A DNA stretch of 64,000 nt from Ruditapes philippinarum (taxonomy: Eukaryota). The notes beneath the pieces were generated by a model. The model did not search any database, was not told where the DNA came from, and saw only the letters and a program-made list of their open reading frames with translations. The translations under genes and the position numbers were made by a program. The stretch's first letter is position 1. Every line of letters starts with the position of its first letter. This document shows, in pieces, positions 5,739-64,000 of the stretch. The stretch covers positions 62,001 to 126,000 of the forward strand of contig NW_026852595.1 of NCBI RefSeq assembly GCF_026571515.1. Direction: 5' to 3'.

Positions 5739-8700
5739 TAATATAAAGTGCGCCATATGCAGGCTGCAATTTTTATGCTCTTCAAATTTTGATTTATTAC
5801 GCTTGAACAAGCTGCTTTTGGGTCTGGATTTTTGGCAGGGACATCTATAAACTTGTAACCAACATGTTACAGAAATTGATTTTATGATTTATATTTGGAT
5901 TTATGAGTTATTTTGAATTGAAAAAGTTTGAAAATAACAAATATTGGAAAAATTGAATATACAGTATAATTATATCAATTGTGTTGGTGAACACCAAATC
6001 ACCTGAAGTCATGGCTAATCCATGTACAATGACAGTGAGACAGTACAATAGAGAGCAATTATTGGATTGTAGATCTGTGCCTAGAAGCTATGTTATACCA
6101 AATGAAGAAACGTTATCTTTGTTGAAAAATTATGGTATTTTGAAATATAGAGGTAAACGAGCTGGCCAGCCAAGGATTAAACATAATGGTGGTGTTCATT
6201 TGGCAAACTTAGTTCAAATTAAACTTGATCATACATACATACAAAATGTCCATAGACAGAGAAAAATGAAACTTGCCACAGTTAATACAAGATCTATACG
6301 GAATAAATCGGCAGATCTTCTCCAGCATATCCTTGAAGAGAATATTGACTTTTGTTTAATTACGGAAACTTGGCTACAGACTGATGGTGATGATGTTGTT
6401 AGGGGTGAACTGGCTCAGGAAGGGTTCTGCTTTGATGATGTACCCAGGCCTGATCGTAGTGGTGGAGGAATAGGCCTTCTATACAGAGATAACCTGAAAG
6501 TGTCAAGCCTACCCAGCAAATCGTATCAATCATTTGAATGTGCTGAATGGCAAATATGTATCCAAACATTCATACTTAGAATCGTTGGCATTTATAGACC
6601 GCCATATTCTGCAAAACACCCGGTCACTCAAGCTACATTCATGACTGAATTCACTGAATATTTAGAACAAGTATCATCTCAATCTAGGTCCATGGTAATT
6701 CTTGGGGACTTCAATATTCATATGGACATGCAATCAGACTGCTACACCAAGCAATTCCAACAATGTTTGAAATCATATGGACTTGTTCAGCATGTGAATA
6801 CTCCAACTCATTCTAGTGGGCATATTATTGACCTGATCATCACAAAAAAGGAAGACAAACTTGCTAGTGTAAACAATCTTCAGTCTAACTATTACATCTC
6901 TGATCACTGTTTTGTTAGTTGTAATATTCAACAATTCTGCCCCCCTTTGGTTACAAAAAACATCATATCACGTAACTGGAAATGTGTGTCGAAGAACTTG
7001 TTAGAAGCCGATCTTGAAGAGTTAAACAGTTTAGCAGAAAAATCATCTACCGTGAATGAACTTGTGTCTGATTTCACAAAGACTGCATCTGATATAATTT
7101 GTAAACATGCTCCATTGAAAGAAAGATCAATTACTGTTAGACCCAAACTTCCATGGTACTCTGGATATCTTAAGCAATTAAAACAGTACAAAAGATCAAT
7201 AGAGAAAATATACTTAAAGGACAGGTCAGATCTCACAAAAATAGTGTACAATAATGTAAGAAACTCCTATACTGCGGCAATAGCATCAGCAAAGGATGGG
7301 TTCTATCAGAGTAGAATCGGAGAGGCTGAAGGGAATGTGAAGAAGTTATATAGCGTGACTTCAGACTTGCTTGGGCGTTCGAAGGATAACCCACTTCCAC
7401 CTCATACCAGTGAGACGGCACTCGCAAACGATTTCTTGCGTTACTTTAGTGACAAAATCCTTAAACTTCGTGATGATCTGGATAACATAAACACAGAAAC
7501 ATCATCTTCAGTGATTGATAGTATTATGGCATCTGATGTACCATCAAGTGAAAATATCATGAACAAATTTATACCACTAAATGAAAAAGACATAATCAAA
7601 CTTGTGAGTGAATCAAAAACAACAACATGTGAGTTGGACGTTATGCCAACACCAAAGCTGAAAGAAAATCTTCATTTGATTGCACCTGTTGTGACAGAAA
7701 TCGTGAATCGGTCATTGTCTTCTGGTGTTTTTCCAGAGACGTGGAAGAGCGCTGTTATTAAGCCCCTTTTGAAAAAGAAAGGCCTTCCCTTAGAATTGAA
7801 AAACTATCGGCCTGTATCAAACCTGTCATTCTTGTCGAAAATTCTTGAAAAAGCTGCAATGAACCAAATTTCAAGCCACATTGAGTCCAACAATTTGTTA
7901 CCATCTTACCAAAGTGCATACCGTAAATTTCACAGTGTTGAGTCTGCTATGATGAAAATGTACAGTGATCTGCTAGAAACAGCTGATAGCCGCCATGTGA
8001 CAATAGTTGTAATGATTGATTTAAGCGCCGCCTTCGATACTATCGATATACCAATATTACTTGAAATCCTACAGAAAGACTTTGCCATACAGGGTATTCC
8101 ATTAAAGTGGATCGAATCTTATTTAACCAACAGAGATATGAAAGTAGTCATTGAACAGTCTTCATCGGATACTGAGCCACTGAGGTTCGGGGTTCCCCAG
8201 GGTTCTTGTGCTGGACCGGTGATATTTACTCTCTATATAGCTGCCCTTAACAAAATAGTCCAGAAATATCCGGCGGATTTGTATGGATATGCAGACGATC
8301 ATAAAGTGGCATTTAAAATTAGAGCTGGTGACCATCACAGCGAAGAAATCGTTCGCCAAAAATTAACTGACTGTCTTAATGATATTGTGTCATGGATGAC
8401 TAGATTTAAGTTAAAAATGAACAATAGCAAAACAGAAATCATCATTTATGGTACAAGACATCAGCTGAAGAAATTGAACATTTCAAGTGTCAATGTTGGT
8501 GGGGTCGAAGTCAACTGTGTTGACAATGTGAGAGACCTTGGAGTACAGATGACCAGCACTTTAAGTTTTGACATCCATATTCAAAAGAAGTGTCAGATTG
8601 CACACATGCAGTTAAGAAATTTGAAAGCAATCAGAAAACATCTCACTCAGAAATCTGCAGAAATCCTTGTTCACGGTTTGATTCATTCACATTTAGACTT

Positions 8701-9295
8701 TTGCAATGGATTATTCGCTGATATTCCAGCCTATCAACTTGATAAATTACAACGTGTGCAAAATTATGCTGCTAGAATTGTCACTGGAGCTGCTTACTAT
8801 CAATCCAGTGCTGAAATTCTTAAATCACTCCACTGGCTTCCAATTCGAGCAAGAATCATGTACAAAGTTATTGTGACTGTGTTTCGTGTTGCAAATGGCA
8901 CCGCTCCATTGTATCTTCGTAAATTGTTCACTAAATGCCAGAGTCAGTACAGGAAAAGACTGAGATCCTCATCATCTAGCCACATTCGGTTTGATATACC
9001 ATCAACAAATTCAAAACTTGCTGATAGATCCTTGGCCATTGTGGGACCTAAATGGTGGAATTCATTGCCAGACTATCTGAAGGACATTACCAATGAAAAT
9101 CAGTTTAAGGCCAAACTTAAAACATACTTGTTTGGACTGTTTTTCAACTAGAGTTGTAGATTGGCTGTGCCATCGATACTGGGTTTGGGAGTGTCTTGAT
9201 CAAGCATATGTGTATATAGTCTTAACAATGTACAGCGCAATCGAATATTTAATACATTTTTGCGCTATATAAATGTCTTGTATTTGTATTTGTAT
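5739..9295 (+). mobile_element. Intact single-ORF L2-type LINE
   Basis: Uninterrupted APE+RT ORF. L2-like 3' stem-loop (tgtacagcgca...tgcgctatataaat), (TTGTAT)n tail and a likely TSD ttata (5734-5738 and 9296-9300). Confidence 0.93.
6011..9151 (+). CDS. LINE ORF2: AP endonuclease plus reverse transcriptase
   Basis: APE motifs NTRS, ITETWL, GDFNIH, SDH. RT motifs YRPVSNL, DLSAAFD, GVPQGS, YADD. First ATG at 6011 (in-frame GTG at 5981). Confidence 0.97.
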   Translation: MANPCTMTVRQYNREQLLDCRSVPRSYVIPNEETLSLLKNYGILKYRGKRAGQPRIKHNGGVHLANLVQIKLDHTYIQNVHRQRKMKLATVNTRSIRNKSADLLQHILEENIDFCLITETWLQTDGDDVVRGELAQEGFCFDDVPRPDRSGGGIGLLYRDNLKVSSLPSKSYQSFECAEWQICIQTFILRIVGIYRPPYSAKHPVTQATFMTEFTEYLEQVSSQSRSMVILGDFNIHMDMQSDCYTKQFQQCLKSYGLVQHVNTPTHSSGHIIDLIITKKEDKLASVNNLQSNYYISDHCFVSCNIQQFCPPLVTKNIISRNWKCVSKNLLEADLEELNSLAEKSSTVNELVSDFTKTASDIICKHAPLKERSITVRPKLPWYSGYLKQLKQYKRSIEKIYLKDRSDLTKIVYNNVRNSYTAAIASAKDGFYQSRIGEAEGNVKKLYSVTSDLLGRSKDNPLPPHTSETALANDFLRYFSDKILKLRDDLDNINTETSSSVIDSIMASDVPSSENIMNKFIPLNEKDIIKLVSESKTTTCELDVMPTPKLKENLHLIAPVVTEIVNRSLSSGVFPETWKSAVIKPLLKKKGLPLELKNYRPVSNLSFLSKILEKAAMNQISSHIESNNLLPSYQSAYRKFHSVESAMMKMYSDLLETADSRHVTIVVMIDLSAAFDTIDIPILLEILQKDFAIQGIPLKWIESYLTNRDMKVVIEQSSSDTEPLRFGVPQGSCAGPVIFTLYIAALNKIVQKYPADLYGYADDHKVAFKIRAGDHHSEEIVRQKLTDCLNDIVSWMTRFKLKMNNSKTEIIIYGTRHQLKKLNISSVNVGGVEVNCVDNVRDLGVQMTSTLSFDIHIQKKCQIAHMQLRNLKAIRKHLTQKSAEILVHGLIHSHLDFCNGLFADIPAYQLDKLQRVQNYAARIVTGAAYYQSSAEILKSLHWLPIRARIMYKVIVTVFRVANGTAPLYLRKLFTKCQSQYRKRLRSSSSSHIRFDIPSTNSKLADRSLAIVGPKWWNSLPDYLKDITNENQFKAKLKTYLFGLFFN

Positions 9296-20320: not shown

Positions 20321-23300
20321 ATGGCCGAAGAGCTAGAGGTAAGTTTCTTTATTCGTGTTTTTTAACAATCTACTGTATGTTTATGTTTTAAATCTGATTT
20401 CATTTGAATCAATAATGTTTTGAAGGTCAGTCGGTATTTGAAAACGAAAGTAGAATACATTCGTGAATCTCTTTTCACACCAGGTGCCTATTTAAACGCT
20501 GGAAAAAAGTTTATCATGGTTTATAGACTAGCATGAATGTTTCGACATTTATCTTTTTTTCTAGAGCTATTTTTATTTTCATCTAGAACTAGAATCTAAT
20601 AAATTAAAAGAAAAATATTTGCCGCTTTGCGAGACTAATCCTAGATGTAGTCTACATGAATATAGATTCTACTTACACATGAATATATTTACACATAACG
20701 AATAAACACTTTAAACACTTTAAACTTTGGTATATGAATCGTACATGTACATGATCGTACAACTAATTTGTTAAATAGCTGGAATTAGTGTGTAACTGTC
20801 GAACCGCGCTGTTTTTCAGTTTAAACACCGCCATTGTATAAAGAAAATATTTCTTCATTGATAAATGTAAATGCCTCTGTAGCTTTTCGTGCGGGCGGTT
20901 GAGGTTCAAAACCTGCCTCTCTCTTATTTTTTAGGCATCTTTTTAATCACATGCTGATTAAACAAATAGCAAAGAGTTTAACAGTAAAATGTTAAATTTT
21001 TAGATTTTGCATTTAATTTTTCTATTTATTAGTCATTTATGTTTGATTTTAGATTTTGCATAAAGAGGTATGATTAATTTTATTTTCAGGAACTAGAGAG
21101 CCTTTTATCAGAGCATTTTGGCAGAACACCGTTGACTGCACCCTGTAATACCCAGGAAGATGTTAGTAGCGACAGCGGTTCTGACCAAGACATCAGGGAA
21201 AATAGTATAGTGGAGAGCCGTGTGCGAGACTTCCTCTACCAGGATAGAGGTGCAAGTACTGGTGCAAATGGTTGTTCGGAAGACATTGAAAGGGATGAAG
21301 AGCTTGAATGGTCCGATGAAGATGAATTCTATGATGATTATGTTGAACCAGATTATGACCACAAGCAGGTTGAACTTCATAAATCTAGTAAATGTTGTAG
21401 GTTAGCATGTAGCGGAAAATTCACTAAAGATCAAATATATCAGTACCTACTTAATATGAAAGAAATGGAAAAAGAAACAAAGGAAAAATAACATTATGGG
21501 TCTGATAAATGATGAAAGATCTACAGAAAAAACACAACGTGGTAAAAAACGTCAAAGAATGAGAAGAAAGTATACGTTACATGGTACTGAAGTATGTAAA
21601 AAGACATTTCTACTTTGTCATGGCATAGGGAAGAAAACACTAAGTAGCTTAAGTAAGCAAGTTTTTCAGGAAGGTATGGCTCCACGTATACATGGAAATA
21701 CTGGCAGAAAACCACATAATGCTATTACCTTTGACGACGTTACAAGAGTAATACATTTTATAAGTATGTTTATCTCCTTTTTCTTGATTTTTAGTTATGT
21801 TTATGAAATATAACGTTTAAAATCTATGGATTTTGATACTATTCCAGTTTACAGGAAAGTTTGATAAACCTTTAGTTGTGAAATTGCTAACTTTTTACAT
21901 TAAAGGAGAGGGACACGTACAACACATGTTTAAGAAGAAGTGCTGATGAAGATGAATCCTTTCATTTTACCTTTGATTTTTGTCAAAACGTGAGTTTGCC
22001 ACATCACGCAAGACAAATGGGACCGTTGTATTTTCTTTCATTGCGAAAAGTACAGATTTTTGGTTTCCGTATAGACGGTATCCCTAAGCAACTGAATTTT
22101 TTGATTGATGAAAACGAGACAGTAGCAGAGGATGGATCCAAAACACATGGCCCTGATGCAGTTATTTCCATGGTTGATTGGGCACTACAGGAACATTGTG
22201 TTAGAGCAAGAAAGTTTTCAATCCATGCTGATAATTGTCCAGGTAAATTATACACATTTCATTCTGTTTAAAGGCACATTTATACTTCGGAAATCAATAT
22301 TTTATTTTAATTCTTCAGAAAAATATAAAACGTATTTAATAATTCTAATTTATATATTTAGAGCATGTGGAATGTTGAACAACTGAAAAAATAGTGCAAA
22401 GTGTACAGTACGTAATGTGTTGTAAAAGTAAGAAAAATGTTAAAGTGTAGTATTTTGACTTCCATGCAAATACTAATTCTAATAGAGCAAAATAAGTTAA
22501 AGAAAGTTAACCTTTATAGCAAATGAGTTTTTTTTTGTAGAAAATGGAACTTGATGCCGACAAAATGTTTTTTGAGAATAAAATAGATAGCATATATGAG
22601 GCATAATATGGGCCTTTAAGTATGTAACAGTACTGAAATAACTAACTTCTTTTTGTATCATTACAACATTATAATGGATATTTTTGGTTTATAAAGATCT
22701 TATTTTATATACAAGCGTTAGTTTGCATTTGATTAAAACTACATAAAAATATAGTTAATTAATCTGCGGGATGATAAATTTGTTTTATTGTTATAAATGA
22801 AAAATACCCCGATAATACTGTTATATTCATTCTCGCTTTTCAGGGCAGAACAAAAATAAGTATGTGCTTGCTTATTTTATGTGGAGAGTAATGACTGGTC
22901 AGAATGAAGTAATAGAATACTTAATGCAAATTCCAGGTAAGTTGATAATATTCTTTACACGCTAGTGATTCTACGTGCACCGTTTTTAAAAAGCATAAAA
23001 AACTATCATTTAATTTTGATTTACTCAATAAAAAGAAAATAGGAACAGATTACGATACATTATCAGGCTGAAAATCGCTTTTACGTACGCAGTTATTAAA
23101 TTGCGATCCATGATGACACATGATAGCCTGCGGAAAGCGGTTTTTATAAATAAAGACACTGCTATGTTCTCTTGATCGAGACATCACGATAATACCGCTA
23201 ATACATAAAAAACAGACATTCTGCTTGATATGTTTATGTATTTCGGAATGTTAAAACATTCATTGTTAGTTTTACTCAAAATGCTTTGTGTCTAAACGAC

Positions 23301-26273: not shown

Positions 26274-27273
26274 CTACATAGCGAGGTCAAAAGAAAAGAA
26301 AAGGCCCTGTGACCAACTCATCATAGTTTCTTTGCATTTCTTTATGACTGACGTCACTTGATATTCGTCAGCGATGCTCACGACCTGTAGGACATTTGTT
26401 TCTAGAGAGAAAAACAACAACAAAAAAAAAAAAAAAAACAGATAAAATGATTGAAAAGAAAATGCATTAGATGTATGAGATGTCAAGTAAATGGTTATGT
26501 GACATTCTGTTGACTCTTGATCTCTTGATATGAGTTACTATCATAGTCTTCCGTTTTTTATACCAAAACTTTCATCTTTTAAAATAACACCAGGCGGGGC
26601 AACGCTCGACTTCTTTTTCTTTTTAACGAGCAAACAAATAAAAGGTTTTAACAAATCTTTGAAAAATAAATTACATTAAAGAAAGAAAATTTCTTATGTT
26701 TTTTATTTTAATAGATCTGTCTCGTCGCTATTGTTGTTTTGTCCAAGTATAAAATCCTTTCGATAAATAAATGACAAAGTTAAGAAAACAAAAGAGCTAA
26801 AATGACCAGCACTCGCTCGCATTAAAATTGTTCTTAGAAGATATTTATTCATTAAATGGTCATTATCGTTTTTCCCAAAAATAAATTAATTTTTTGCAAT
26901 TATATTAGAATGTTATTATATAAAATAATTTATTAAATTCTGATCTTCTTTATATTTTATATGTGATATGTTTAAACTAACCTGTAATCGGTTTGGAAAT
27001 TCTCGGGTGAATGCATAGCAGAAATTCGAGAAAATCATCGTAATTTTTCCCTGTCAATGAAACGAGGTTTTCCTTTTTCTCCTGCCAGTCATGATCAAAC
27101 ATTGCCTTGAAAACAGGCGAAGCGTATCGTAGAAAGTTTTTCGAAACATAAAGTTTGTTGCTGTTATCAAACACCAACGTAATCTCATTATCAAATTCTC
27201 CACTTTCTGTAAATGCTTCAGTCATATCGAATATGTTTTTAATGCTATTTTCTAATCCCTCGTCACCGCTCAT
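26274..27273 (-). CDS. BTB/POZ gene copy A, C-terminally truncated (about 139 aa, open frame)
   Basis: Exons 26982-27273 and 26274-26401. BTB motifs ITLVF..LYVSKNFLRYASPVFKAMF..GKNYDDFLEFLLCIHP..ADEYQV..C. Homology to the paralogues ends at about 26305 because of a deletion. Confidence 0.8.
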
Positions 27274-30792: not shown

Positions 30793-32073
30793 TTAGTATT
30801 TTAGGTTAGTTTCATCATTTAAATGAAGCAATCGTTCAGCTACTATTTTGTATTTAATTTCGAAAGGAAGGTTTTGAAACATTTTCATACAGTCCATTTT
30901 TATATCACCAAAAGTTTCATCTCCCGTTTTATCGGAAGGAGAAGGTTGGTTCTTAATGTGCATTTTTTGTGATTCTTTTTGTCCTGTATTATAAAGAATG
31001 TGTCCGAACTTTGCTATAGATTTTACTGCAAACTTCACTAAATCATTATAGCTTAATTCATGTACTTTTGCCACTATTCGAAGACAGGGTCTGAGGTATT
31101 CTGCGTGGTAGAGATAATGATTACCCTTTGCTCTCGCCTGATCAAATGACGCCTGTAACCAACTTATCATATATTCTTTGCACTTTTTTATGACTGATGT
31201 TACTTGATATTCGTCAGCAATGCTCACGATCCGTAGGACGTTTGTTTCTAGAAAAAAAAATTGTACCCAAAGTATAGACTATCTTTAAAAAAATGGAACC
31301 ACCGCCAGGCGGGGGCAACGCTCGACTTTATCTTTTTTAAGAGCAAACAAATAAACGGTTTAAAGAAATCTTCAAAAAGTAAATTAAAGAAAATAAATAA
31401 CATTTTTGCCTTTTTTATTGTTATAGGTTTGTCTCGTCGCAGTTGCTGTTTTGTCCAAGTATGAATCCTTTCGATAAATAAATGACAAAGTTAAGACAAC
31501 AAAAGAGCTAAAAATGACCAGCACTCGCTCGCATTTAAAAATTGTTCTTAGAATATATTTATTTATTAAATTGTCCTTATCGTTTTTTCCAAAAATAGTA
31601 AACTAACTTTTTGCAATAGTATTATTTAATAATCTATCAAATTCTGATCTTCCTTACATTTTACATGTGATATGTTTGAACTAACCTGTAATCGGTTTTA
31701 AAATCCTCGGGTGAATACAAAGCAAAAATTCGAGAAAATCGTCGTAATTTTTCCCTGGCAATGACACGCTGTTTTCCTTTTTCTCCTTGCAGTCATGATC
31801 AAACATTGCCTTGAAAACAGGTGAGGCGTATCTCAGAAAGTTTTTTTAAACATAAAGTTTGTTGCTGTTATCAAACACTAACGTAATCTCATCATCACAT
31901 TCTCCACTTTCTGTAAATGCTTCAGGCATATCGGTTATGTAACTACAGCTTGATTCTGGTTCCTTACTTTTTGTGAATGCTTCAGACATATCGGTGATGT
32001 TGATAGTTCTAATACTTGATTTCTCTTTTTCCATGACTTTTTCATATCTGCCAAATTCCTCGTCACTGCTCAT
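30793..32073 (-). pseudogene. BTB/POZ gene copy B, in-frame nonsense codon
   Basis: Exons 31686-32073 and 30793-31247. KLYV*KNFLRY: TAA at 31846-31848 replaces Ser and the frame is otherwise intact. Confidence 0.85.
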
Positions 32074-40078: not shown

Positions 40079-41345
40079 TTAGTATTTAAGGCTAGTTTCA
40101 TCTTTTAAATGAAGCAATCGTTCAGCTACTATTTTGTACTTAATTTCGAAAGAAAGCTTTTGAAACATTTTCATACAGTCCATTTTTATATCACCAAAAG
40201 TTTCATCTCCTGTTTTATCGGAAGGAAAAATTTCATCCACATCGTACATTCTTTGTAAGTCTTTTTGTCCCTCATTATAAAGAATATGTCCAAACTTCGC
40301 TTAATTTTTACTGCAAACTTCACTACATCATTAAAGGTTAATTCATGTGCTTTTGCTACTATACTGAGACAGGGTCTGAGATATACTGCTTGGTAGAGAT
40401 AATGATTATCTTTTGCTCTCGCCTGATCGAATGACGCTTGTAACCATCTCATCATATATTCTTTGCATTTATTTATGACTGACGTCACTTGATATTCGTC
40501 AGCAATGCTCACGATCTGTAAGACGTTTGTTTCTACAAAAAATATATCCAACAAAGTATAGACTATCTTTAAAAAAACAGAAATCAACGCCAGGCGGGCA
40601 ACACTCGACTTCTTTTATTTTTTAAGAGCAAACAGATAAACGGTTTTAACAACTCTTTAAAAAGTAAAATAAAGAAAGAAACATTTTTTTCCCTTTTTTT
40701 ATTGTAATATGTCTGTCTCGTCGCAGTTGCTGTTTTGTCCAAGTATGAATCCTTTCGATAAATAAATGACAAAGTTAAGAAAACAAAAGAACTAATAACG
40801 ACCAGCACTCGCTCGCCTATAAAATTGTACTTAGAAGATATTTACCTTATCGTTTTACCCCAAAACGTTTTGTTATAGTATTAGGTACTCATTATATTTC
40901 ATAATTTATCAAATTCTGGTCTTCCTTACATTTTAAATGTGATCTGTTTGAACTAACCTGTAATCGGTTTTGAAATTCTCGGGTGAATGCAAAGCAAAAA
41001 TTCGAGGAAATCGTCGAAATTTTTCCCTGTCAGTGATACGCAGTTTTCCTTCTTCTCCTGCCAGTTATGATCAAACATTGCCTTGAAAACAGGCGAGGCG
41101 TATCGTAGAAAGTTTTTCGAAACATAAAGTTTGTTGCTGTTATCAAACACTAACGTAATCTCATCATCACATTCTCCACTTTCTGTAAATGCTTCAGGCA
41201 TATCGGTTATGTAACTAAAGCTTGATTCTGGTTCCTAACTGTTTGTGAGTGCTTCAGACATTCCGGTGATGTTTGAACATCTAAAACTTAATCCCTCATA
41301 TTCTGTGCTTTCCTCATATCTGTCAAACTACTCGTCACTGCTCAT
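40079..41345 (-). pseudogene. BTB/POZ gene copy C, multiple lesions
   Basis: Exons 40958-41345 and 40079-40532. Two in-frame TAGs lie before ATG 41201, and a 1-nt deletion at about 40302 shifts the frame of exon 2. Confidence 0.88.
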
Positions 41346-44156: not shown

Positions 44157-47003
44157 TCACATTAAGTATTTAAGGCAGCTTTTACCATCGTACCGTAGTA
44201 AACGTTCAGCTAATATTTTATATTTAATTTCGAAAGAAAGATTTTTAAACATATTCATACAGTCCTTCATTATATCACTTAAAGATTCATCGCCTTCTTT
44301 GTAAAACGGATTAGGCTCGCCGAAATAGGCAGAACCATCTTGTGCTGATGGATCTGTGTTTCCTTCATTATAAAGAATGTGTCCAAACTTTGCTATGCTT
44401 TTAACGGCATACTTTACAACGGCATCATAGCCTAATTCATGTGCTTTTGCTACTATACGAAGGCAAGGTCTAAGCCATACTGCTTGGTGGAGATAATGAC
44501 ATCCGTTTGGGTTTGGTTGTTTGATGGGATTCTCCAACAAAACCATCATAACTTCCTTGCATTTGTTTATGATTGATGTTACCTGATATTCGTCTGCAAT
44601 TTTCACGAGCCGTAGGACGTTCTTTTCTAGATAAATATGACGAAAACAATCAAATCAAGTATGTCAAATGGAAAGTAATGTGACAGTTTATTGTCATATG
44701 TTACAAAAAATTGTTCAATTCTTCAAGTTGTGAGTACCCAATCTCTACACTGCCCTCTAAAATATAAAGAGTGGCATTCGACAACATTAAGAAATAAGGT
44801 ACACAGTATATAAACGAATTGTACCCCAACCGGATCTTGTGAGAAGATTTCAACATCAGTTCCTTACAAACAGGCGGGATGACTCATAAAACATTTAAAG
44901 ACGGCTTGCATTCATTCTGTGAAGTTTTGTAAACATTTGAATCATATTAAGAAAGAGTTTATCTTTGCTTATATATGCATCCATAACCTGCTTTGTTAAA
45001 TATATGCGCATAAAACGCTGTGCTTTCGCTTTTTGTCAACACACGCCGGTTACACAAGCAAATTTATGCCTACACAAGCAAATTTATGCCTTAAATTGTT
45101 TTACCTCACTTTAACTCATATCTGAATCTTAACTTTATTGTCTTTACCTCATGTTACCGGACAGACACTTGTATACATATATTTGAATCTTGATAAAACT
45201 TAGTAAATAATAGAGGCGAACTTTCTGATACCTTTACTGTACCAGTCTTGCTAAAACAATTTTAATTTGTTTTTTCACTGAACCATAACTTGCGAGCTAT
45301 TGTTGATGATTTTTACTGTTTTTGTCCTATGTCCCATATTTTATCGTGCAGAATATGAAGCTATTGTGCCACAAGAGCATGAAAACATCAGTGGCCAATA
45401 CTGCACAAGAATGGAGCTTCATCATGTTTTCACTGTCTATGGAAACGATGTAGAAATAAAGTGATAAATACTACAAAATCAGTCCTTAATCGCATATGAC
45501 ACGTAAATTATTCGTAAAATCACAAATCTTTTTACTTTTCTTAAAATTAAGTACATTTTGATTACCAGATAATTTTCTTGAAATATTTTGGCTTATCTGG
45601 AGGCATGTAAAATAAATCTTTTTAAGGAGTTTCCTGCATATTGTTGTTAAATGTCTAAAAGGTAGTTTACACTCTTACAAGTTTATTTCCACTTATTTTC
45701 AAATAATTTAAATTCTTGCCAGTGTATACATAAGGTAACTTGTTAGTTTTCTTTTCACACAGCTTAAACAGTTTATCATTGGCTATAGTTATCTTAAGAC
45801 AAAAGATACATATAAATACAGTTCCTTTCTATAAATTGCCATATACATGTATTTCAGATTGATTTGGATGAATCATTTGAAGTAAGGGTCTTGACAGTAG
45901 CTTAGTGTAACAAACACCCAAAGCACGCCCATGAAAACACAAAATGAATGTTGGATCTGTGGGATAAGTGGTGACACCAAGTTTAATCATGATAAATGTT
46001 TTCTCCAATGTTATCCCGACAGGGACTTTGGATTCTTTCATGTGAGTAAGCTATTCAGCTAGCTTACGGAACGCCGGTGGTTCTACTCAGGTGCCTGTTC
46101 GTGCCTGAAAAAATGCACGGAAGGGCACCTGAGGTCTTCCTCCACCAGTAAAGCTGGAACGTCGCCAAATGACCTATACTGTGTCGGTGTGACGTTAAAC
46201 CCAAACCGAACAAACAAACAGCAATATTTGTTGCAGATGAATAATTTTCATTTGTTATTGATAACTTATTGATATCACAACCAGATGTTTAACTAAATAA
46301 ACCATGAAATATGACGGATTTTTGTTCCTGTTTAGTACTGACCACCTGAAAGTTATTCGTAAGTTTTGATTATTTAATAGCCTAAATGCTAATATTTATA
46401 TTTTGCATAACTGAGACGTTTAATAAAGTTTCTCTTCTACGATATAAATATAGACATACTGCCCTAACGTCCATGAGTATCAACATAAATACCAATATAT
46501 TAAACAAGTTAAGCGGCAGACAATGGCTGACACTGATTTCTTCTCACAAGATCCGGCTGGGGTTCAAATCGTTTATATACTGTGAGGTATGTAAGCTATC
46601 TAGAAATGCTATATGAAGTATTTATTCATTAAACTATCAGTATCTTTTACCCAAAAAACAAAGCTTACTTTTTGCCGTAGTATTAGATAGTCATAATATT
46701 TTATAATTTAGCAAATACTAAACTTCTTTAAAAAGTTCATTTGATCTTTTTAAACTAACCTGTTATTGGTTTTAAAATCCTAGGGTGTACACAAAGCAAA
46801 AATTCGAGGAAATCGTCGTATTTTTTCCCTGGCAATGATACCCTGTTCTCCTTCGTCTCCTGCCAGTCATGATCAAACATTACCTTGAAAACAGGCGAGG
46901 CGTATCGTAGAAAGTTTTTAGAAGCATAAAGTTTGTTGCTGTTATCAAACACCAACGTAATCTCATCATCACATTCCCCACTTTCTGTAAATGTGCTGGA
47001 CAT
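44157..47003 (-). CDS. BTB/POZ gene copy D, apparently intact (about 237 aa)
   Basis: Exons 46760-47003 and 44157-44626, phase-1 GT-AG intron, no stops. BTB domain followed by a helical C-terminal region; most divergent paralogue. Confidence 0.85.
46014..46220 (+). mobile_element. 5'-truncated young SINE in the intron of BTB copy D
   Basis: Near-identical to the reverse complement of 1325-1505; (CAAA)n tail. Confidence 0.92.
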
Positions 47004-52992: not shown

Positions 52993-54076
52993 TTAGTACT
53001 TTAGGCTAGTTTCATCATTTAAATGAAGCAATCGTTCAGCTACTATTTTGTACTTAATTTCGAAAGAAAGGTTTTGAAACATTTTCATGCAGTCCATTTT
53101 TATATCACCAAATGTTTCATCTCCTGTTTTATCGGAAACAGAAGGTTCGTTTCCATAGCGCGTTCTTGGTGATTCTTTTTGTCCATTATTATAAAGAATG
53201 TGCCCAAACTTTGCTATAATTTTTACTGCAAACTCAACTACATCATTATAGCTTAGTTCATGTGCTTTTGCTACTATCCGAAGACATTGTCTGAGATATT
53301 CAGTTTGGTAAAGATAATGATATCCCTTTCCTCTCGCCTGATCTAATGAAGCCTGTAACCAAGTCATCATAGTTTCTTTGCATTTTTTTATGACTGACGT
53401 TACTTGATATTCTTCAGCAATGCCCATGATCCGTAGGACGTTCGTTTCTAGAAACAACAAGAAAAAAGCTCTAGATTATATGATGAAAACAGACGCATAA
53501 GATGTATCTGTGATATTCCGTTGGCAAATGATATGAATGATTGTCATATGCTTTCATTTTTATACCCAAGCTTTCAAGTACCTTTCAAAATAAAATGATC
53601 AGCTCTCGTTCGCATTTATATTTGTTCTTAGGTGAAATTTATTCTTTGAATTGTTCTTATCGTAATAAATTAACTTCTTGCTGTAGTATTAGTCATTATT
53701 CTTGATAATTTATCAAATACTGATCTTCCTTACATTTTAAATGTAAAATGTTTGAACTAACCTTTAACCGGCTTGGAAATCCTCGGGTGAATGCAAAGCA
53801 GAAATTCTAGAAAATCGTCGTAATTTTCCCTGTCAATGATACGCTGTTTTCCTTCTTTTCCTTGCAGTCATGATCAAACATTGCCTTGAAAACTGGCGAG
53901 GCGTATCGTAGAAAGTTTTTCGAAACAAAAAGTTTGTTGTTGTTATCAAACACCAACGTAATCTCATCATCACATTCTCCGCTTTCTGTAAATGCTTCAG
54001 GCATATCGATTTTGTTTATACTGCTATTTTCTAATTCCTTGACTTGACTTGACTCTAATTTCTTGTCACTGCTCAT
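52993..54076 (-). pseudogene. BTB/POZ gene copy E, single homopolymer frameshift (possibly intact)
   Basis: Exons 53762-54076 and 52993-53447. T4 at 53824-53827 where the paralogues have T5; otherwise open. Confidence 0.8.
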
Positions 54077-56273: not shown

Positions 56274-57343
56274 TTATTTAACACTGCCTTCATCATTCAA
56301 AAGAAGCAATCGTTCCGCAAATATTTTGCATTTAATTTCGAAGGAAAGGTTTTGAAACATATTCATACAGTCCATCTTTATATTACCAAGGGTTTCATCT
56401 CCTGATTTATCGGAATGATTAGGGCCTAATACAATAAGAATTTTTTCTTGTTGTCCCTTATTATAAAGAATGTGCCCAAACTTTGCTATAGTTTTTACTG
56501 CAAACTTCACTACATCATTATAGCTAAGTTCATGTGCTTTCGCTATTATAGGTAGACAGGGTCTGAGATAAACAGCTTGGTAAAGACAATGACCTCCTTT
56601 TCCTTACGCCTGATCAAATGAAGCCTGTAACCAAGTCATCATCAATTCTTTGCATTTCTTTGTAATTGAAGTCACATGGTATTCGTCAGCAATGGTCACG
56701 ACCTGTAGGACATTTGTTTCTAACAACAACAAAAATCCCAGATAATATGATGAAAACAGACGCATAAAATGTGTGAGATGTTATGTAAATGGTTCTGTGA
56801 TATTCCGTTGACAAATGATATGAATGATTGTCATATTCTTCCATTGTTATACACACTTTCAACTATCTTTCAAAATGAAAATGACCAGCTCTCGCTCGCA
56901 TTTAGAATTGTTCTTCATTAAATTGTCCTTATCGATTTCCCCAAAAATAGTCAACTAACTTTTTGCAATAGTATTAGGTACTCATTATATTCAATAATCT
57001 ATCAAATTCTGATCTTCCTTACATTTTACATGTGATATGTTTGAACTAACCTGTAATCGGTTTAAAATTCCTCGGGTGAATACAAAGCAGAAATTCGAGA
57101 AAATCGTCGTAATTTTTCCCTGTCAATGATACGCTGTTTTCCTTCTTCTCCTTGCAGTCATGATCAAACATTGTCTTGAAAACAGGCGAGGCGTATCGTA
57201 GAAAGTTTTTAGAAACATACAGTTTGTTGCTGTTATCAAACACTAACATAATCTCATCCTCACATTGTCCTCTTTCTATAAATGCATCAGACATATTAAT
57301 TATGTTTTTACTGCTATTTTTCTATTTCCTCGTCACTGCTCAT
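56274..57343 (-). pseudogene. BTB/POZ gene copy F, disrupted
   Basis: Exons 57051-57343 and 56274-56719. A +1 frameshift at about 57317-57321 (alternative ATG at 57294) and a TAA at 56604-56606 (FDQA*GKG). Confidence 0.85.
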
Positions 57344-59427: not shown

Positions 59428-62400
59428 TTAGTTTAAACAATATTTATTTCTATTGTACAACATAAATATATACAGTAAGCATATACAATCACACTGATAT
59501 ATTTCGTGGATTGGAAAACAAGTCAAATGTGACTTATGTAAATTCCTTTCCACACATAATGTACTTGCAATAAAAAAATATGCACATATTTGGTTAGAAT
59601 AATACAGAAAAGGGAAATCAGAAAAATAGTTTAAAAGAATAGATTTGTTAGAACATTATTATCTAGAGTAGTAGAATAAAAAAACTTCTGTTTCAAGATT
59701 ATTTCATAATATTGGGAGATTACTCCAAACAATTTCTTAAACAAAGTAAAATATTGTTTTTAAACTAGTAGATCTATTCAAATTAAGTTAAAAAAATTTT
59801 CAAATGAATTTTGTTTAGAAATGTTCCGAAAGAAAAAAAGAGACAAAAAATATTTAAATAAAGTTTTGAATTAAGATAAAGAAATAGAAGAATATATGTC
59901 TGGCACACAATATTATCGGGAAGTGATGGACAGAAAAAAGATGATATTAGTTAGTAAACGTTTGGAAGCTAGGATAAACTGTTTTGAACTTTAAGAAATG
60001 ATTTTTTCGTTCGTGTTAAAACTCAGGGCGCTCGTCTCCGTACAAAAGATTGTTAATTGTCAGGGGACATGGAAGGGACGTAAGTACAATGCTTCTGATG
60101 AATAATCATAACGAGGGCATGAAAAAAGAAAAAGTGTGTTTTTTTATGCATGTCTGTCTCTAATTTCGCCACAAACATAATGGAGACTGGATAATAGAAC
60201 TTCTTATGAGTCAAAGGTTCAGGGGAGCTAACAATCTAAACGAAGACGTGCGTGCATTATTTGGCCTATACGACTTCCTAAAACATTAAATAAAGGGAAA
60301 GGCTTTTGTTTTGTTTTTTATTAATGCTTCGTTTTAAAGGCAGCAACAGAAGAGAAATGAAATTTCTTGTATCTAAGCAGGTAGTAAGTTTCCCATTTCT
60401 TATTGCAGAAGGAAGAAAGGAATGAGCTATATATTGTGTTCTTTGAAAGTTTACTTGGTCTGAGATTCTGAGGTGGTAAGAACTCGTGTTGTGTTGGGGT
60501 ACAGAATCAGAGAGATAGTTTGGAGTAATTCCATTGTACATTTTAAAGAAATAAAACTAGTTTATGTTGTTTACCGCCTTTCGGCTAGGGTATCCCAATT
60601 TGCAGGTCAGTTTAGTAATTCACATTATATTGCCATACGTTTTGTTTGCACCTTGTACTAACTTGCTGCCTCGTTTTGAATCTGCTTCAAATATCAATTT
60701 TTTAACATGTTTCGAGGAGTTTATCCCATGTAACATCGGCGTACTCAAGGATAGGGCGATAAAACGACATATACATTCTTTCCAAGCTTGAACGATTGAG
60801 GAGAAATTTAAGAGATTCATTGATGCCTACTCTCTGCCAAGCTTTTCGCAGTATTATAGATATATGAGTATCCCATTTAACATTTTCAGAAAGGGTAACA
60901 CCAAGATGTGTGTGACTTTGTACACGTTTGATTGAAATTCCATTCATTTGAATTGGGGGATGGTTAACTTGTATTATTTTCCTTGAAAATATCATGGATT
61001 CTGTTTTGGACGGATTAAAGGTAACCAGCCAAGCCTTTGACCATTCATGAATTTTTTGAAGGTCGTCATTCCCTGCGGGCTCCGGCCCGCAGGGTATTGG
61101 TACGCGTTTAATTTTTGAGGCATGGAGGAGCACGTGACCTGTTTTCGGTACATGGAGGAGCATGTGATCTGTAAACCGTACATGATTGGTTAATTGACCT
61201 ATTCGAAAACCTAGCTAAATACCGTTTCCCGGTACGTTACGGATTTACCTCTAGGGAATCATTGTATACACACCGGTCTCTCAAATGACCGGTGTACACA
61301 ATGCTAGGGAATTAGTCCGAATTACACCTAATTAAGAACATAACACTATTACGTGATATTTCTAATTTCTATTATTATTTTTACCGTTTAAGGTGGAAAA
61401 ACTTGCATGATGTGTTTGAAAATTATAATTGTGTTTCTTTAAAATCTATCTGAAATTTTACAGACAATAAATTGTTTATAGTGAAAATCCACAGAATTAA
61501 AACATTCGTTTTGTGGCATCTGCCATAATAGATAGAGATATTTTCTGCGTAAACTTGTGTGTTTACTTTATTTTATTTTATTATTTTTTTGCACGGAATT
61601 ATTCATACAATGGTATTTAATCATTTTCTTAAACAGAAATATTGTTTTATTTTCGACCAAGACCAAAGACCTTCTTCTATTGATCGATTATTGTCAACTA
61701 TATTCCTGATACAAACGTTATTTTTTTTTCCCCAAACCATGTTGAAAATAGTTAAATGAAATATCTTTTAAATCTTTATAAATGTTCCCCGCAGGAAACC
61801 ATTTTACTTGTTTAAATGCTTGGCTGCGTCTATGGGATTCTCTACAATGATATAAAGGCTCGTGTCGTCTGCAAAAAGTCGTATGCTCGAATTTACATCG
61901 TTAACGATATCGTTTATATATAACAAGAAAAGCAGAGGTCCGAGGATCGAGCCCTGGGGTACGCCAGCATTAATTGATGACCAGTTAGAAGAACAATTAG
62001 CATATACAACGCGTTGTTTGCGATCAGAGAGATAGGAAGTGAACCAGTTAAGAAGGGAGCCGTTTATTCCAATTGAGGTAAGCTTATGTAAGAGACCTCG
62101 ATGCCATACTCGGTCGAATGCTTAAGAGATATCGCAAAACACAGCGCGAACCTCCAAGCCTTCATCAAGAGCCTTGCAGATATCGTTGTATATGTATGTA
62201 ATTTGATTAATGGTGGAGTCACCTTTGATGAAACCGGATTGATAAGACGTGAGGAGGTTGTTGGTAATAATATAGTTGTACAAGTATTTGTGAATACACC
62301 TCTCCATTAGTTTACCCAACAGCTTAAGATAGAAATGGGTCGGTAGTTCGAAGGCTTAGATGGGTCATTCTTTTTAAATATAGCAGTGACATTGGCTATT

Positions 62401-64000
62401 TTCCAGGAGGTAGGAAAGGTACATTTTGTAAGTAATATGTTGAAAAAGTCAGCCAAAGGTTTAGACAGAACAGTAGATCCTTCTCTCAATAATCGGGGAT
62501 GAATAAGATCTGGCCCACAGGCTTTCGATGGGTCAATTAACGAGATAGCATCTCTGACATCTTCTTCTGTAATTGTAATTTGGGGAAGAGATGAGTTTGT
62601 ATGCAAATTCAGATTTGGGAGTTGTGTGTTTTGAGCGTCAATGTTTGATTGTGTACAAAAGAAATTATTTAGAAGTTCTACCTTCTCTTTGTCAGTATTT
62701 GCAGAAATTCCGTTATCACAAAGAGGACTGGGATTGCTGGTTTTGATTGTTTTTGTGTGAAAGATTTTGTCAGTTTAAACCAAATTTTTCGTTGAAGTAT
62801 TTGATGAGTTTATTTGTTCAATTAATTTATTTTTATATTCATTCTTACTTTTTCTTATTTGTTTGGTAACCGCATTTCTGATTGTTTCTAAATTGTTTGC
62901 CAAGATAACTCTGTATTCATCTGTTTGCTTTTTGTGGGCCTTTTTTCGTTTTCTTATTAGTTTACGTTATTTTGTTGGTCATCCATGGAATATCATGTGG
63001 TCTTATTGTTACTATTTTGTTAGGAATATTGTTGTCTGCGGCATTTAATATGGTACTAGTTATTTGGTTGACTGTTTCATCTATATCATTGTCAATATTT
63101 ATTATGGATTGCCAGTCTGCTGAGTTTATTTCATTTCTGTAGCCAGAGTAATCACCCCTATCATAAAGCCATATTTTGCGTTTGTATGTGGTACCCTTTG
63201 GTTTCGAAAATTTCATTACTGATACGATTGGACAATGAAAACGAATAACATCTGGAATAAATGGGTCTGCAACAAAACTTGTTAAGATATGATTTGTGTT
63301 CTTTACAAACATTACATCGAGCAATGAGCAAGAGCTTTCTGTAAAGTGGGTTGGTGTAGTAATAAGTTGTTCTGCATTGTAAGAGGCTATAAGATTAGAC
63401 AGTTTGTTTGACAATTAGAATTTTAGAAGATTAATGTTTAAAATCGCCAGCAATCAGGATATTGTCAGATCTCTCAAAAAATGCTTGATCTATACACTGT
63501 CAAGAAGAAGCCAAATGCTGATTGTTAGAGTCTGGGGGTCTATAAATACCACCTAGAAAGAAGTTTACGACTGTTTATATCAAGTTCTACCATACACATT
63601 CGATACCACGTACAGATAAATCAGAATCTTGTATTAAATCTTAAGCCCTCTCTAACATAGATCGCTACTCCACCACCGACTCTGTCTGATCTGTCGCAAC
63701 GAACCGGGAGCATTGGAAATTTGGTATTTCAATGTCATTGTTATGCCACTTCAGGACGCAGCCAGGTTTTTCAGTAAAAAATAAGAATATCATATGGCTG
63801 TGTTTTCGAGTTCAAGTATATCAAAAGCTTAGGTCTAGACTCTGAATATTTAAAACACATAATACTTAACCCACTATTTATTAAGCTCAGAAATAGAAGA
63901 TGCAAAAGATAGTCCGGTGCTGGAGTTGCTTTCAACAGATGGACCAGGATTACAATGAATATCCCCAGCACAAAATTAATATAATTGAAAGCCAGTGAGG
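59428..64000 (-). mobile_element. Decayed CR1-type LINE, runs off the window end
   Basis: Endonuclease fragments, KACGPD, NYRPISILS, QSGF, VFCDIS, GVPQGSILGPLLFL.YIND, FADDTSLY, LEYAD, C-terminal FFSCPRY..LLYGD..SKRF* and a 3' end with aataaatattgtttaaa. Many frameshifts. Confidence 0.9.
61071..61812 (-). mobile_element. Helentron-associated (HINE/pearl-like) non-autonomous element
   Basis: On the minus strand it starts AACAAG, has a subterminal ttcctgcggg, an internal 30-bp tandem repeat (61121-61184) and a 3' hairpin ccctgcgggc-cgga-gcccgcaggg. It sits at an AA/TT site that splits the CR1 RT motif KHL|NDDLQ. Confidence 0.75.

What the first reader, a model, noticed from the sequence alone, without database searches (positions are those of the whole stretch)
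30934..30990. Hypervariable loop in BTB exon 2 with nearly all non-synonymous change
Between conserved FGHILYN and GDE the paralogues read TGQKESQKMHIKNQPSPSDKT (B), EGQKDLQRMYDVDEIFPSDKT (C), EGNTDPSAQDGSAYFGEPNPFYKE (D), NGQKESPRTRYGNEPSVSDKT (E) and KGQQEKILIVLGPNHSDKS (F). By hand count, B versus E over 23 codons gives 9 amino-acid-changing codons and 1 silent one. Length differences are in frame. A second variable patch precedes LRPCL. This fits diversifying selection on a ligand-binding surface. Homologous loops are at about 40220-40276, 44300-44368, 53134-53190 and 56410-56463.
Basis: partly seen in the sequence, partly recalled or inferred. Interest (0 to 1): 0.75.

Follow-up and report, generated by a model that had tools for sequence, protein, structure and literature searches.

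The report
Clam BTB–BACK adaptors' diversifying loop
A clam carries dozens of duplicated genes for a small protein predicted to be a ubiquitin-ligase adaptor, and one flexible loop in it changes amino acids faster than silent sites change, likely because selection keeps altering what it binds; the partner is unknown.

Summary
The loop is 21 codons (30925–30987, − strand) and B versus E gives 9 replaced codons to 1 silent, but that alone is chance-level (P=0.32). The genes are six tandem two-exon copies of a bivalve-expanded family (≥54 exon-2 matches). The predicted fold is a stand-alone BTB–BACK protein like SPOP or KLHL3, with the CUL3-binding φ-x-E motif in 34 of 35 rows and no MATH or Kelch domain. 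The loop is a low-confidence insertion in BACK, not in BTB. On gap-free loops ω≈1.65 against 0.19–0.35 in exon 1 and the rest of exon 2; a neutral-loop simulation reached this 1 of 98 times. Site tests survive multi-hit and synonymous-rate corrections (p≈0.009). Four other paralogue groups give ω 1.3–2.1 (combined p 5e-5; 0.011 on the loop's own dS), though two lose the signal on their own dS and one shows recombination. The second patch is not above 1 (0.57–0.75). Five of six window copies are broken in this assembly, but the lesions are recent and in-frame C, E and F-like versions exist elsewhere. Diversifying selection is likely; ligand binding is untested.

The parts
30925..30987 (-). Hypervariable loop of copy B (21 codons), an insertion in the BACK-like domain between FGHILYN and GDE; carries most candidate positively selected codons
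31105..31146 (-). Second variable patch of B (before LRPCL); tip of a long helical hairpin at the BTB/3-box junction; omega 0.57-0.75, not above 1 in this cluster
30793..31247 (-). Copy B exon 2 (last BTB helices, 3-box/BACK-like domain, stop)
31248..31685 (-). Copy B phase-1 GT-AG intron
   Evidence: the NCBI model P0001 joins these exons; a spliced E-like contig joins the homologous exons
31686..32073 (-). Copy B exon 1 (BTB core); premature TAA at 31848-31850; phi-x-E motif codons at 31783-31791
26306..27273 (-). Copy A: intact exon 1, exon 2 truncated after about 30 codons
40079..41201 (-). Copy C: 1-nt deletion near 40301; loop 40211-40273; an in-frame version with the same loop exists as P0003
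44157..47003 (-). Copy D: the only intact window copy; loop 44295-44366 (24 aa); equals NCBI model P0014
52993..54076 (-). Copy E: 1-nt deletion in an A run near 53824; loop 53125-53187; an E-like spliced contig without that gap is in run X13
56274..57294 (-). Copy F: TAA at 56604-56606; loop 56403-56459 (19 aa); an intact F-like protein with a different loop core is P0006

Best explanation
These are tandem copies of a bivalve-expanded gene family for a small BTB–BACK protein predicted to be a CUL3 ubiquitin-ligase adaptor, and the loop is a flexible insertion in its BACK domain in which some codons are likely under recurrent diversifying selection, probably because the loop would contact changing partners such as foreign proteins. 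Shown: two-exon structure, repeated duplication and loss, purifying selection on the BTB and helices, loop replacement rate above the gene's silent rate in gap-free copies, conserved φ-x-E motif. Predicted: BTB–3-box–BACK fold with the loop as coil, and no separate MATH or Kelch substrate domain. Inferred: CUL3 binding; the loop, perhaps with the hairpin-tip patch, replaces the missing substrate domain and recruits targets for ubiquitylation; pathogen proteins are the driver, by analogy with nematode F-box and MATH-BTB adaptors.
For: Gap-free ('split') loop design, 9 copies: loop ω 1.65 (p=0.011; 1.47, p=0.06 with multi-nucleotide changes), exon 1 0.19, rest of exon 2 0.35. On its own synonymous rate the loop gives ω 2.7 (p=0.059; 4.1, p=0.039 with multi-hit) and its dS is 0.6x. 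M8a vs M8 p=2e-4, 1.4e-3 with multi-hit, 0.009 with multi-hit plus site rate variation. Neutral-loop simulations: 0 of 18 reach the site-test LR; 1 of 98 and 0 of 66 reach ω 1.64. Three disjoint pairs: loop pN 0.285 vs loop pS 0.132 (p=0.03) and rest pS 0.20 (p=0.02). Loop dN 0.22–0.50 exceeds aligned flank and intron divergence 0.02–0.21 in the 7 gap-free pairs. Other groups: ω 1.40, 1.70, 2.12, 1.32; combined without this cluster p=5e-5 on shared dS, 0.011 on own dS. The low-confidence N-terminal tail has ω 0.34, so disorder alone does not give ω≥1 here. Broken copies show tip ω 0.23 vs 0.27 for intact ones outside the loop, so the divergence built up while they were functional. Fold: SPOP Z 13.5, A55 13.3, KLHL3 12.1 over most of the chain; φ-x-E Glu in 34 of 35 rows; a cullin gene whose exon motif I recall as CUL3 is in the genome.
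Against: The four equal-length copies alone: loop ω 1.48, p=0.11; M1a/M2a p=0.13; M8a/M8 p=0.044. The very strong nine-copy result (p≈1e-10) is inflated by misalignment: ω falls to 1.06 on the loop's own dS. Groups X and Z drop to ω 0.94 and 0.78 on their own dS and X shows recombination (PHI p=0.001). Multi-hit site tests are not significant in Y6, Y3 and Z (p=0.22, 0.13, 0.27). Pooled over all 15 disjoint pairs, loop pN 0.206 vs loop pS 0.175 is not significant (p=0.17). The loop has pLDDT 55–69 and tolerates lengths of 16–63 aa. Five of six window copies are disrupted here, and raw RNA depth over B exon 2 and D exon 1 was at background or zero in 2 of 2 libraries laid (4–6% of each run read). 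The codon models are my own implementation (empirical Bayes, branch lengths from M0), not PAML.
Confidence: 0.5

Rival explanations
1. The loop is a neutral, flexible insertion. It drifts at ω≈1, and the apparent excess comes from misalignment, multi-base mutations and a locally raised mutation rate near indels.
For: Low pLDDT coil; length 16–63 aa; 9:1 count is chance-level; ω≈1 on own dS for the gappy nine-copy alignment and for groups X and Z; pooled 15-pair loop pN vs loop pS p=0.17.
Against: In gap-free copies of this cluster loop dS is not raised (0.6–0.9x). Neutral-loop simulations rarely reach the observed values. Y groups give ω 5.4 and 7.5 on their own dS (p=0.002, 0.016). G1/G2 differ by 9 replacement and 0 silent changes in the loop. 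The equally low-confidence N-terminal tail has ω 0.34.
Confidence: 0.2
2. Gene conversion homogenises the flanks and exon 1, or swaps loop segments between paralogues, so the loop is simply older than the rest of the gene and ω on a shared dS is inflated.
For: Group X: loop pS 0.195 vs rest 0.124 and PHI p=0.001; one Z pair has rest pS 0.014 vs loop pS 0.35.
Against: In the window's cluster synonymous rates do not differ among regions (2dL 0.6, df 3, p=0.90), PHI p=0.28 and 0.39, and no shared run survives correction for 36 pairs. The combined test on the loop's own dS is still p=0.002.
Confidence: 0.12
3. Selection is real, but the loop does not recruit substrates. It would instead set which paralogues co-assemble through the BACK domain, or be the surface that a parasite antagonist attacks, or act as a decoy without CUL3.
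For: The loop lies inside BACK; BACK-mediated self-association in SPOP is recalled, not tested here. No substrate domain is present. Candidate selected codons also lie on BTB helices α5/α6 (alignment columns 89 and 106).
Against: φ-x-E and the BTB are under strong purifying selection, as expected of working CUL3 adaptors. The constrained-BTB, variable-C-terminus split matches adaptor families in nematodes (passages of PMC8120010).
Confidence: 0.18

Closest known systems
Nematode F-box and MATH-BTB ubiquitin-ligase adaptor expansions (Thomas 2006, not held; seen through passages of PMC8120010, and PMC12951971)
   Same: Tandem birth-and-death clusters of cullin adaptors, purifying selection on the cullin-binding domain, positive selection towards the C-terminal part, hyper-divergent regions, proposed defence role.
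   Different: There the selected region is a separate folded substrate domain (FTH, FBA, MATH). Here there is none and the signal sits in a flexible insertion within BACK. NCBI's 'BTB and MATH domain-containing protein 38-like' label on P0021 and P0023 is not matched by a MATH hit in the 3 full-length members scanned.
SPOP, KLHL3/KLHL11, KEAP1 and vaccinia A55 BTB–3-box–BACK CUL3 adaptors (passages of PMC3597819; PMC3616122)
   Same: Whole-chain structural match (VIA Z 10–13.5; Foldseek E≈2e-5 to 4e-4); sequence match of the BTB to KEAP1 (E 3e-9); φ-x-E motif aligned with KEAP1 L-R-E.
   Different: No MATH or Kelch domain; two variable insertions (long α6–α7 hairpin, 20–60 aa BACK loop); dozens of fast-turning-over copies instead of conserved single genes.
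Other bivalve immune-type expansions (C1q, TLR, C-type lectin, RING and Deltex E3s; passages of PMC8382680; listings)
   Same: Lineage-specific tandem expansion with frequent loss and apparent presence/absence between haplotypes.
   Different: This BTB family was not found described in those searches; PMC8382680 has 0 occurrences of 'BTB' in its main text (supplements not read).

Membership tests
BTB/POZ-domain proteins | Pfam PF00651 above cut-off | tested here: met
   P0013 54.5 bits, residues 31-122; window exon 1 of A and D, E about 1e-8
CUL3 BTB-3-box-BACK adaptors | phi-x-E motif in the alpha3-beta4 loop | tested here: met
   Glu in 34 of 35 rows, hydrophobic or Cys at phi in 35 of 35; aligns with KEAP1 LRE; motif defined in PMC3616122
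CUL3 BTB-3-box-BACK adaptors | 3-box helices and BACK helices after the BTB | tested here: met
   Model pLDDT 85; aligns over residues 8-247 to SPOP 179-367, A55 and KLHL3 (rmsd 3.6-6.2). Pfam BACK did not hit in 0 of 40 exon-2 rows, so this rests on the predicted fold
CUL3 BTB-3-box-BACK adaptors | Physical binding to CUL3 | not tested
   No full-length clam CUL3 chain was available to fold with it
CUL3 BTB-3-box-BACK adaptors | BTB homodimer | not tested
   No complex model was obtained
MATH-BTB (BATH/SPOP) or BTB-Kelch families | Fused MATH or Kelch substrate domain | tested here: not met
   Only BTB in 3 of 3 full-length members; 87 of 89 cluster representatives are 288 aa or shorter; the 'longer' search found 1 protein, with an Arg/Ser-rich tail
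Diversifying adaptor families (nematode F-box/MATH-BTB type) | Tandem birth-and-death with pseudogenes | tested here: met
   54 exon-2 matches of 83 candidates, clustered on several contigs; 5 of 6 window copies disrupted; adjacent loci in Mercenaria
Diversifying adaptor families (nematode F-box/MATH-BTB type) | Purifying selection on the cullin-binding domain, positive selection elsewhere | tested here: met
   Exon 1 omega 0.15-0.19; loop 1.5-1.7; site tests p 2e-4 to 9e-3. Moderate strength; 2 of 5 groups lose it on their own dS
Diversifying adaptor families (nematode F-box/MATH-BTB type) | Selected sites lie on a substrate-binding surface | not testable with these tools
Immune-induced effector genes | Induction by infection | not testable with these tools
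   Runs are coded, without treatment labels; only presence of a spliced E-like contig was seen

The most novel reading that the evidence does not exclude
Clams have evolved a minimal, variable intracellular recognition system: stand-alone BTB–BACK adaptors that drop the MATH/Kelch domain and use a CDR-like loop inserted in BACK, plus a hairpin-tip patch, to catch foreign proteins for CUL3-mediated destruction, kept as hyper-divergent haplotypes with different gene content and reshuffled by loop exchange.
Probability: 0.2. Interest if true: 0.8.

Novelty: new variant of a known kind. Interest (0 to 1): 0.5.

Why it matters
Diversifying ubiquitin-ligase adaptors are proposed as intracellular defence in nematodes and plants, but my searches found no description in bivalves. 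A family that puts its variation in a loop inside BACK, with no dedicated substrate domain, would be a new way to build an adaptor. It is directly testable by loop swaps, and it would give candidate disease-resistance loci in farmed clams. If the loop is only a neutral linker, it is an ordinary birth-and-death BTB cluster.

Tried and rejected
Gappy nine-copy test (p≈1e-10): rejected as main evidence because misalignment raises the loop's dS 1.9x. Pseudogene relaxation as the cause: rejected, tip ω outside the loop 0.23 vs 0.27. Second patch as positively selected: not supported in this cluster; it was too gappy to test in groups X and Y. First structure model from 12 sequences was unusable (pLDDT 46). 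Pfam found no family above cut-off for exon 2. Metagenome DNA scan found no locus (0 of 90 pattern matches confirmed), so the JGI variants are protein-only and give no dS. No RNA holder was listed on record for the B region. B's stop could not be checked in other individuals: its position is not among the rows shown. No complex model was obtained. Earlier scan findings: none by place, sequence or words. Literature searches that found no description of this family: (listings only; subscription papers and supplements not seen). Rows left out of tests: A and F' (no loop), one short-loop Y copy, one near-duplicate Z copy, group V and the long-loop copies.

Full report
Observation. The five loop peptides are in the sequence as quoted, on the − strand, between FGHILYN and GDE. 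B's loop is 21 codons, 30925–30987. B versus E over 23 codons gives 9 changed and 1 silent codon. Since 78% of loop sites are non-synonymous, that count alone has P=0.32.

Anatomy. The window holds six two-exon genes, A–F, each with a phase-1 intron. Only D is intact in this assembly: A has a truncated exon 2, B and F have stops, C and E have 1-nt deletions. Proteins identical to these gene models are labelled Ruditapes philippinarum by NCBI. The 1.41-Gb genome gives 54 exon-2 matches of 83 candidates and 111 exon-1 matches of 129. Contig C4515 carries five close copies (G1, G2, D', E', F') and is colinear with this locus at 81–92% identity; C3481 is colinear with the next, non-overlapping part of the same contig. 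Both may be unpurged alternative haplotypes; this is inferred, not shown. The family has 89 clusters at 50% identity. Of 20 looked up, 10 carry names: Ruditapes (1), Mercenaria (4, neighbouring loci on one chromosome), Mya (3), Sinanodonta (1) and one insect repeat protein that matches only a short stretch.

The lesions are recent or erroneous. Outside the loop, broken copies have tip ω 0.23 against 0.27 for intact ones. P0003 is an in-frame C with the same loop and P0006 an intact F-like protein. Run X13 has a spliced contig with E-specific bases and no gap where E is frameshifted. B's loop is unchanged in a contig of run X3, and a contig of run X5 that spans it differs at 2 of 555 bases. Raw RNA coverage was near background in the three raw-read libraries laid.

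Structure. A model from 73 rows has mean pLDDT 85. It matches BTB–BACK of SPOP, vaccinia A55, KLHL3, KBTBD2/4 and KLHL11 over most of its length. The φ-x-E motif that contacts CUL3 (PMC3616122 passages) keeps its Glu in 34 of 35 rows. The two helices after the BTB correspond to the 3-box (PMC3597819 passages). There is no MATH or Kelch domain. The second patch is the tip of a long α6–α7 hairpin.

Selection in this cluster. I wrote GY94-type codon models in Python (PAML not used). Four equal-length copies give loop ω 1.48, p=0.11. All nine aligned through gaps give p≈1e-10, but that is inflated: on its own dS the loop falls to 1.06. The fair design compares loops only among gap-free copies (B, C, E, E'; G1 with G2). 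It gives ω 1.65 (p=0.011) against 0.19 for exon 1, 0.35 for the rest of exon 2 and 0.72 for the patch, with loop dS not raised. M8a vs M8 is p=2e-4, 1.4e-3 with multi-base changes, and 0.009 with site rate variation added. Candidate codons are the loop centre plus columns 89, 106 and 124. Neutral-loop simulations reached the observed values 0 of 18, 1 of 98 and 0 of 66 times. The low-confidence N-terminal tail has ω 0.34. PHI finds no recombination here (p=0.28).

Replication. I set loop limits in other groups by homology after seeing the alignments. Group X (11 copies, gap-free loop): site test p=5e-5, 7e-4 with multi-hit, 0.013 with rate variation, top sites in the loop; loop-wide ω 1.40, but 0.94 on its own dS, with recombination. 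Y6 and Y3: ω 1.70 and 2.12, rising to 5.4 and 7.5 on own dS, but their multi-hit site tests are not significant. Z: 1.32, falling to 0.78. Combined over five groups p=2e-6 (shared dS) and 0.002 (own dS); without the window's cluster 5e-5 and 0.011. Simple pooled counts over 15 disjoint pairs give loop pN above rest pS (p=4e-5) but not above loop pS (p=0.17). In six presumed allele pairs at protein level, changes are 8 of 127 in the loop, 10 of 84 in the patch and 14 of 574 elsewhere, mostly from F vs P0006, which may be a paralogue.

Mechanism. Most likely the BTB and 3-box dock on CUL3 (inferred from motif and fold), and the BACK loop supplies variable contacts to targets in place of a substrate domain (inferred from where selection falls). 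Turnover of copies and divergent haplotypes fit a host–parasite driver, as proposed for nematode adaptors (PMC8120010 and PMC12951971 passages; the original 2006 paper was not held). My odds: about 0.75 that selection on some loop codons is real, about 0.75 that these are CUL3 adaptors, about 0.4–0.5 that the loop recruits substrates. The rivals are a neutral linker, conversion mosaics (which do contribute in X and Z), and selection on oligomer specificity or antagonist escape.

Novelty. The kind of system is known from nematodes and plants. Six searches found no account of this bivalve family or of selection on a BACK-domain insertion. A clam Vibrio study mentions only a BTB zinc-finger gene (PMC9125321 passages). 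Verdict: a real feature with moderate statistical support for diversifying selection and an untested function; new variant of a known kind; interest 0.5.

Noticed in passing
window 5957-9151 (+): Uninterrupted 1064-codon ORF with endonuclease and reverse transcriptase domains (non-LTR retrotransposon; RVT_1 E 2e-28). RT-like fragments at 60702-63414 look decayed.
   Followed up: partly
window 21078-22271 (+): Three adjacent ORFs of 117-137 aa without a Pfam hit; they look like a broken transposon-derived gene.
   Followed up: no
L047, L048, L051 (G000:C1082:223-232 kb; C3481): Paralogues with 57-63 aa loops rich in FG/FxF-like motifs; the loops are fairly conserved between the two contigs while the first patch varies.
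   Followed up: no
G000:C4515 and C3481 versus C1082: Two small contigs colinear with adjacent parts of the window's contig at 80-98% identity and with different gene content; possible hyper-divergent haplotypes. Run X5 holds both B and a contig matching D' at 8 of 8 listed bases.
   Followed up: partly
P0002 (B-like protein): An 11-aa tandem duplication inside the loop and three changes in the first patch relative to B.
   Followed up: partly
Group X exon 2 (e.g. L020, L027, L058, L061): The patch before the LRPCL-equivalent helix is Tyr/His-rich and length-variable, reminiscent of a binding loop; too gappy for a codon test.
   Followed up: no
L060 versus L028: Outside the loop this pair has 1 silent difference in 69 sites but pN 0.068, a possible sign of selection on helix surfaces or of conversion. 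Both have Arg/Ser-rich C-terminal tails.
   Followed up: partly
G000:C1082 about 142-148 kb (L039-L040), - strand: A 2008-codon Thr-rich tandem-repeat ORF, mucin-like, between the two BTB clusters.
   Followed up: no
window 31957-32073 and 41230-41345: B and C have an internal duplication of the N-terminal segment upstream of the BTB; C's extension carries in-frame stops.
   Followed up: no
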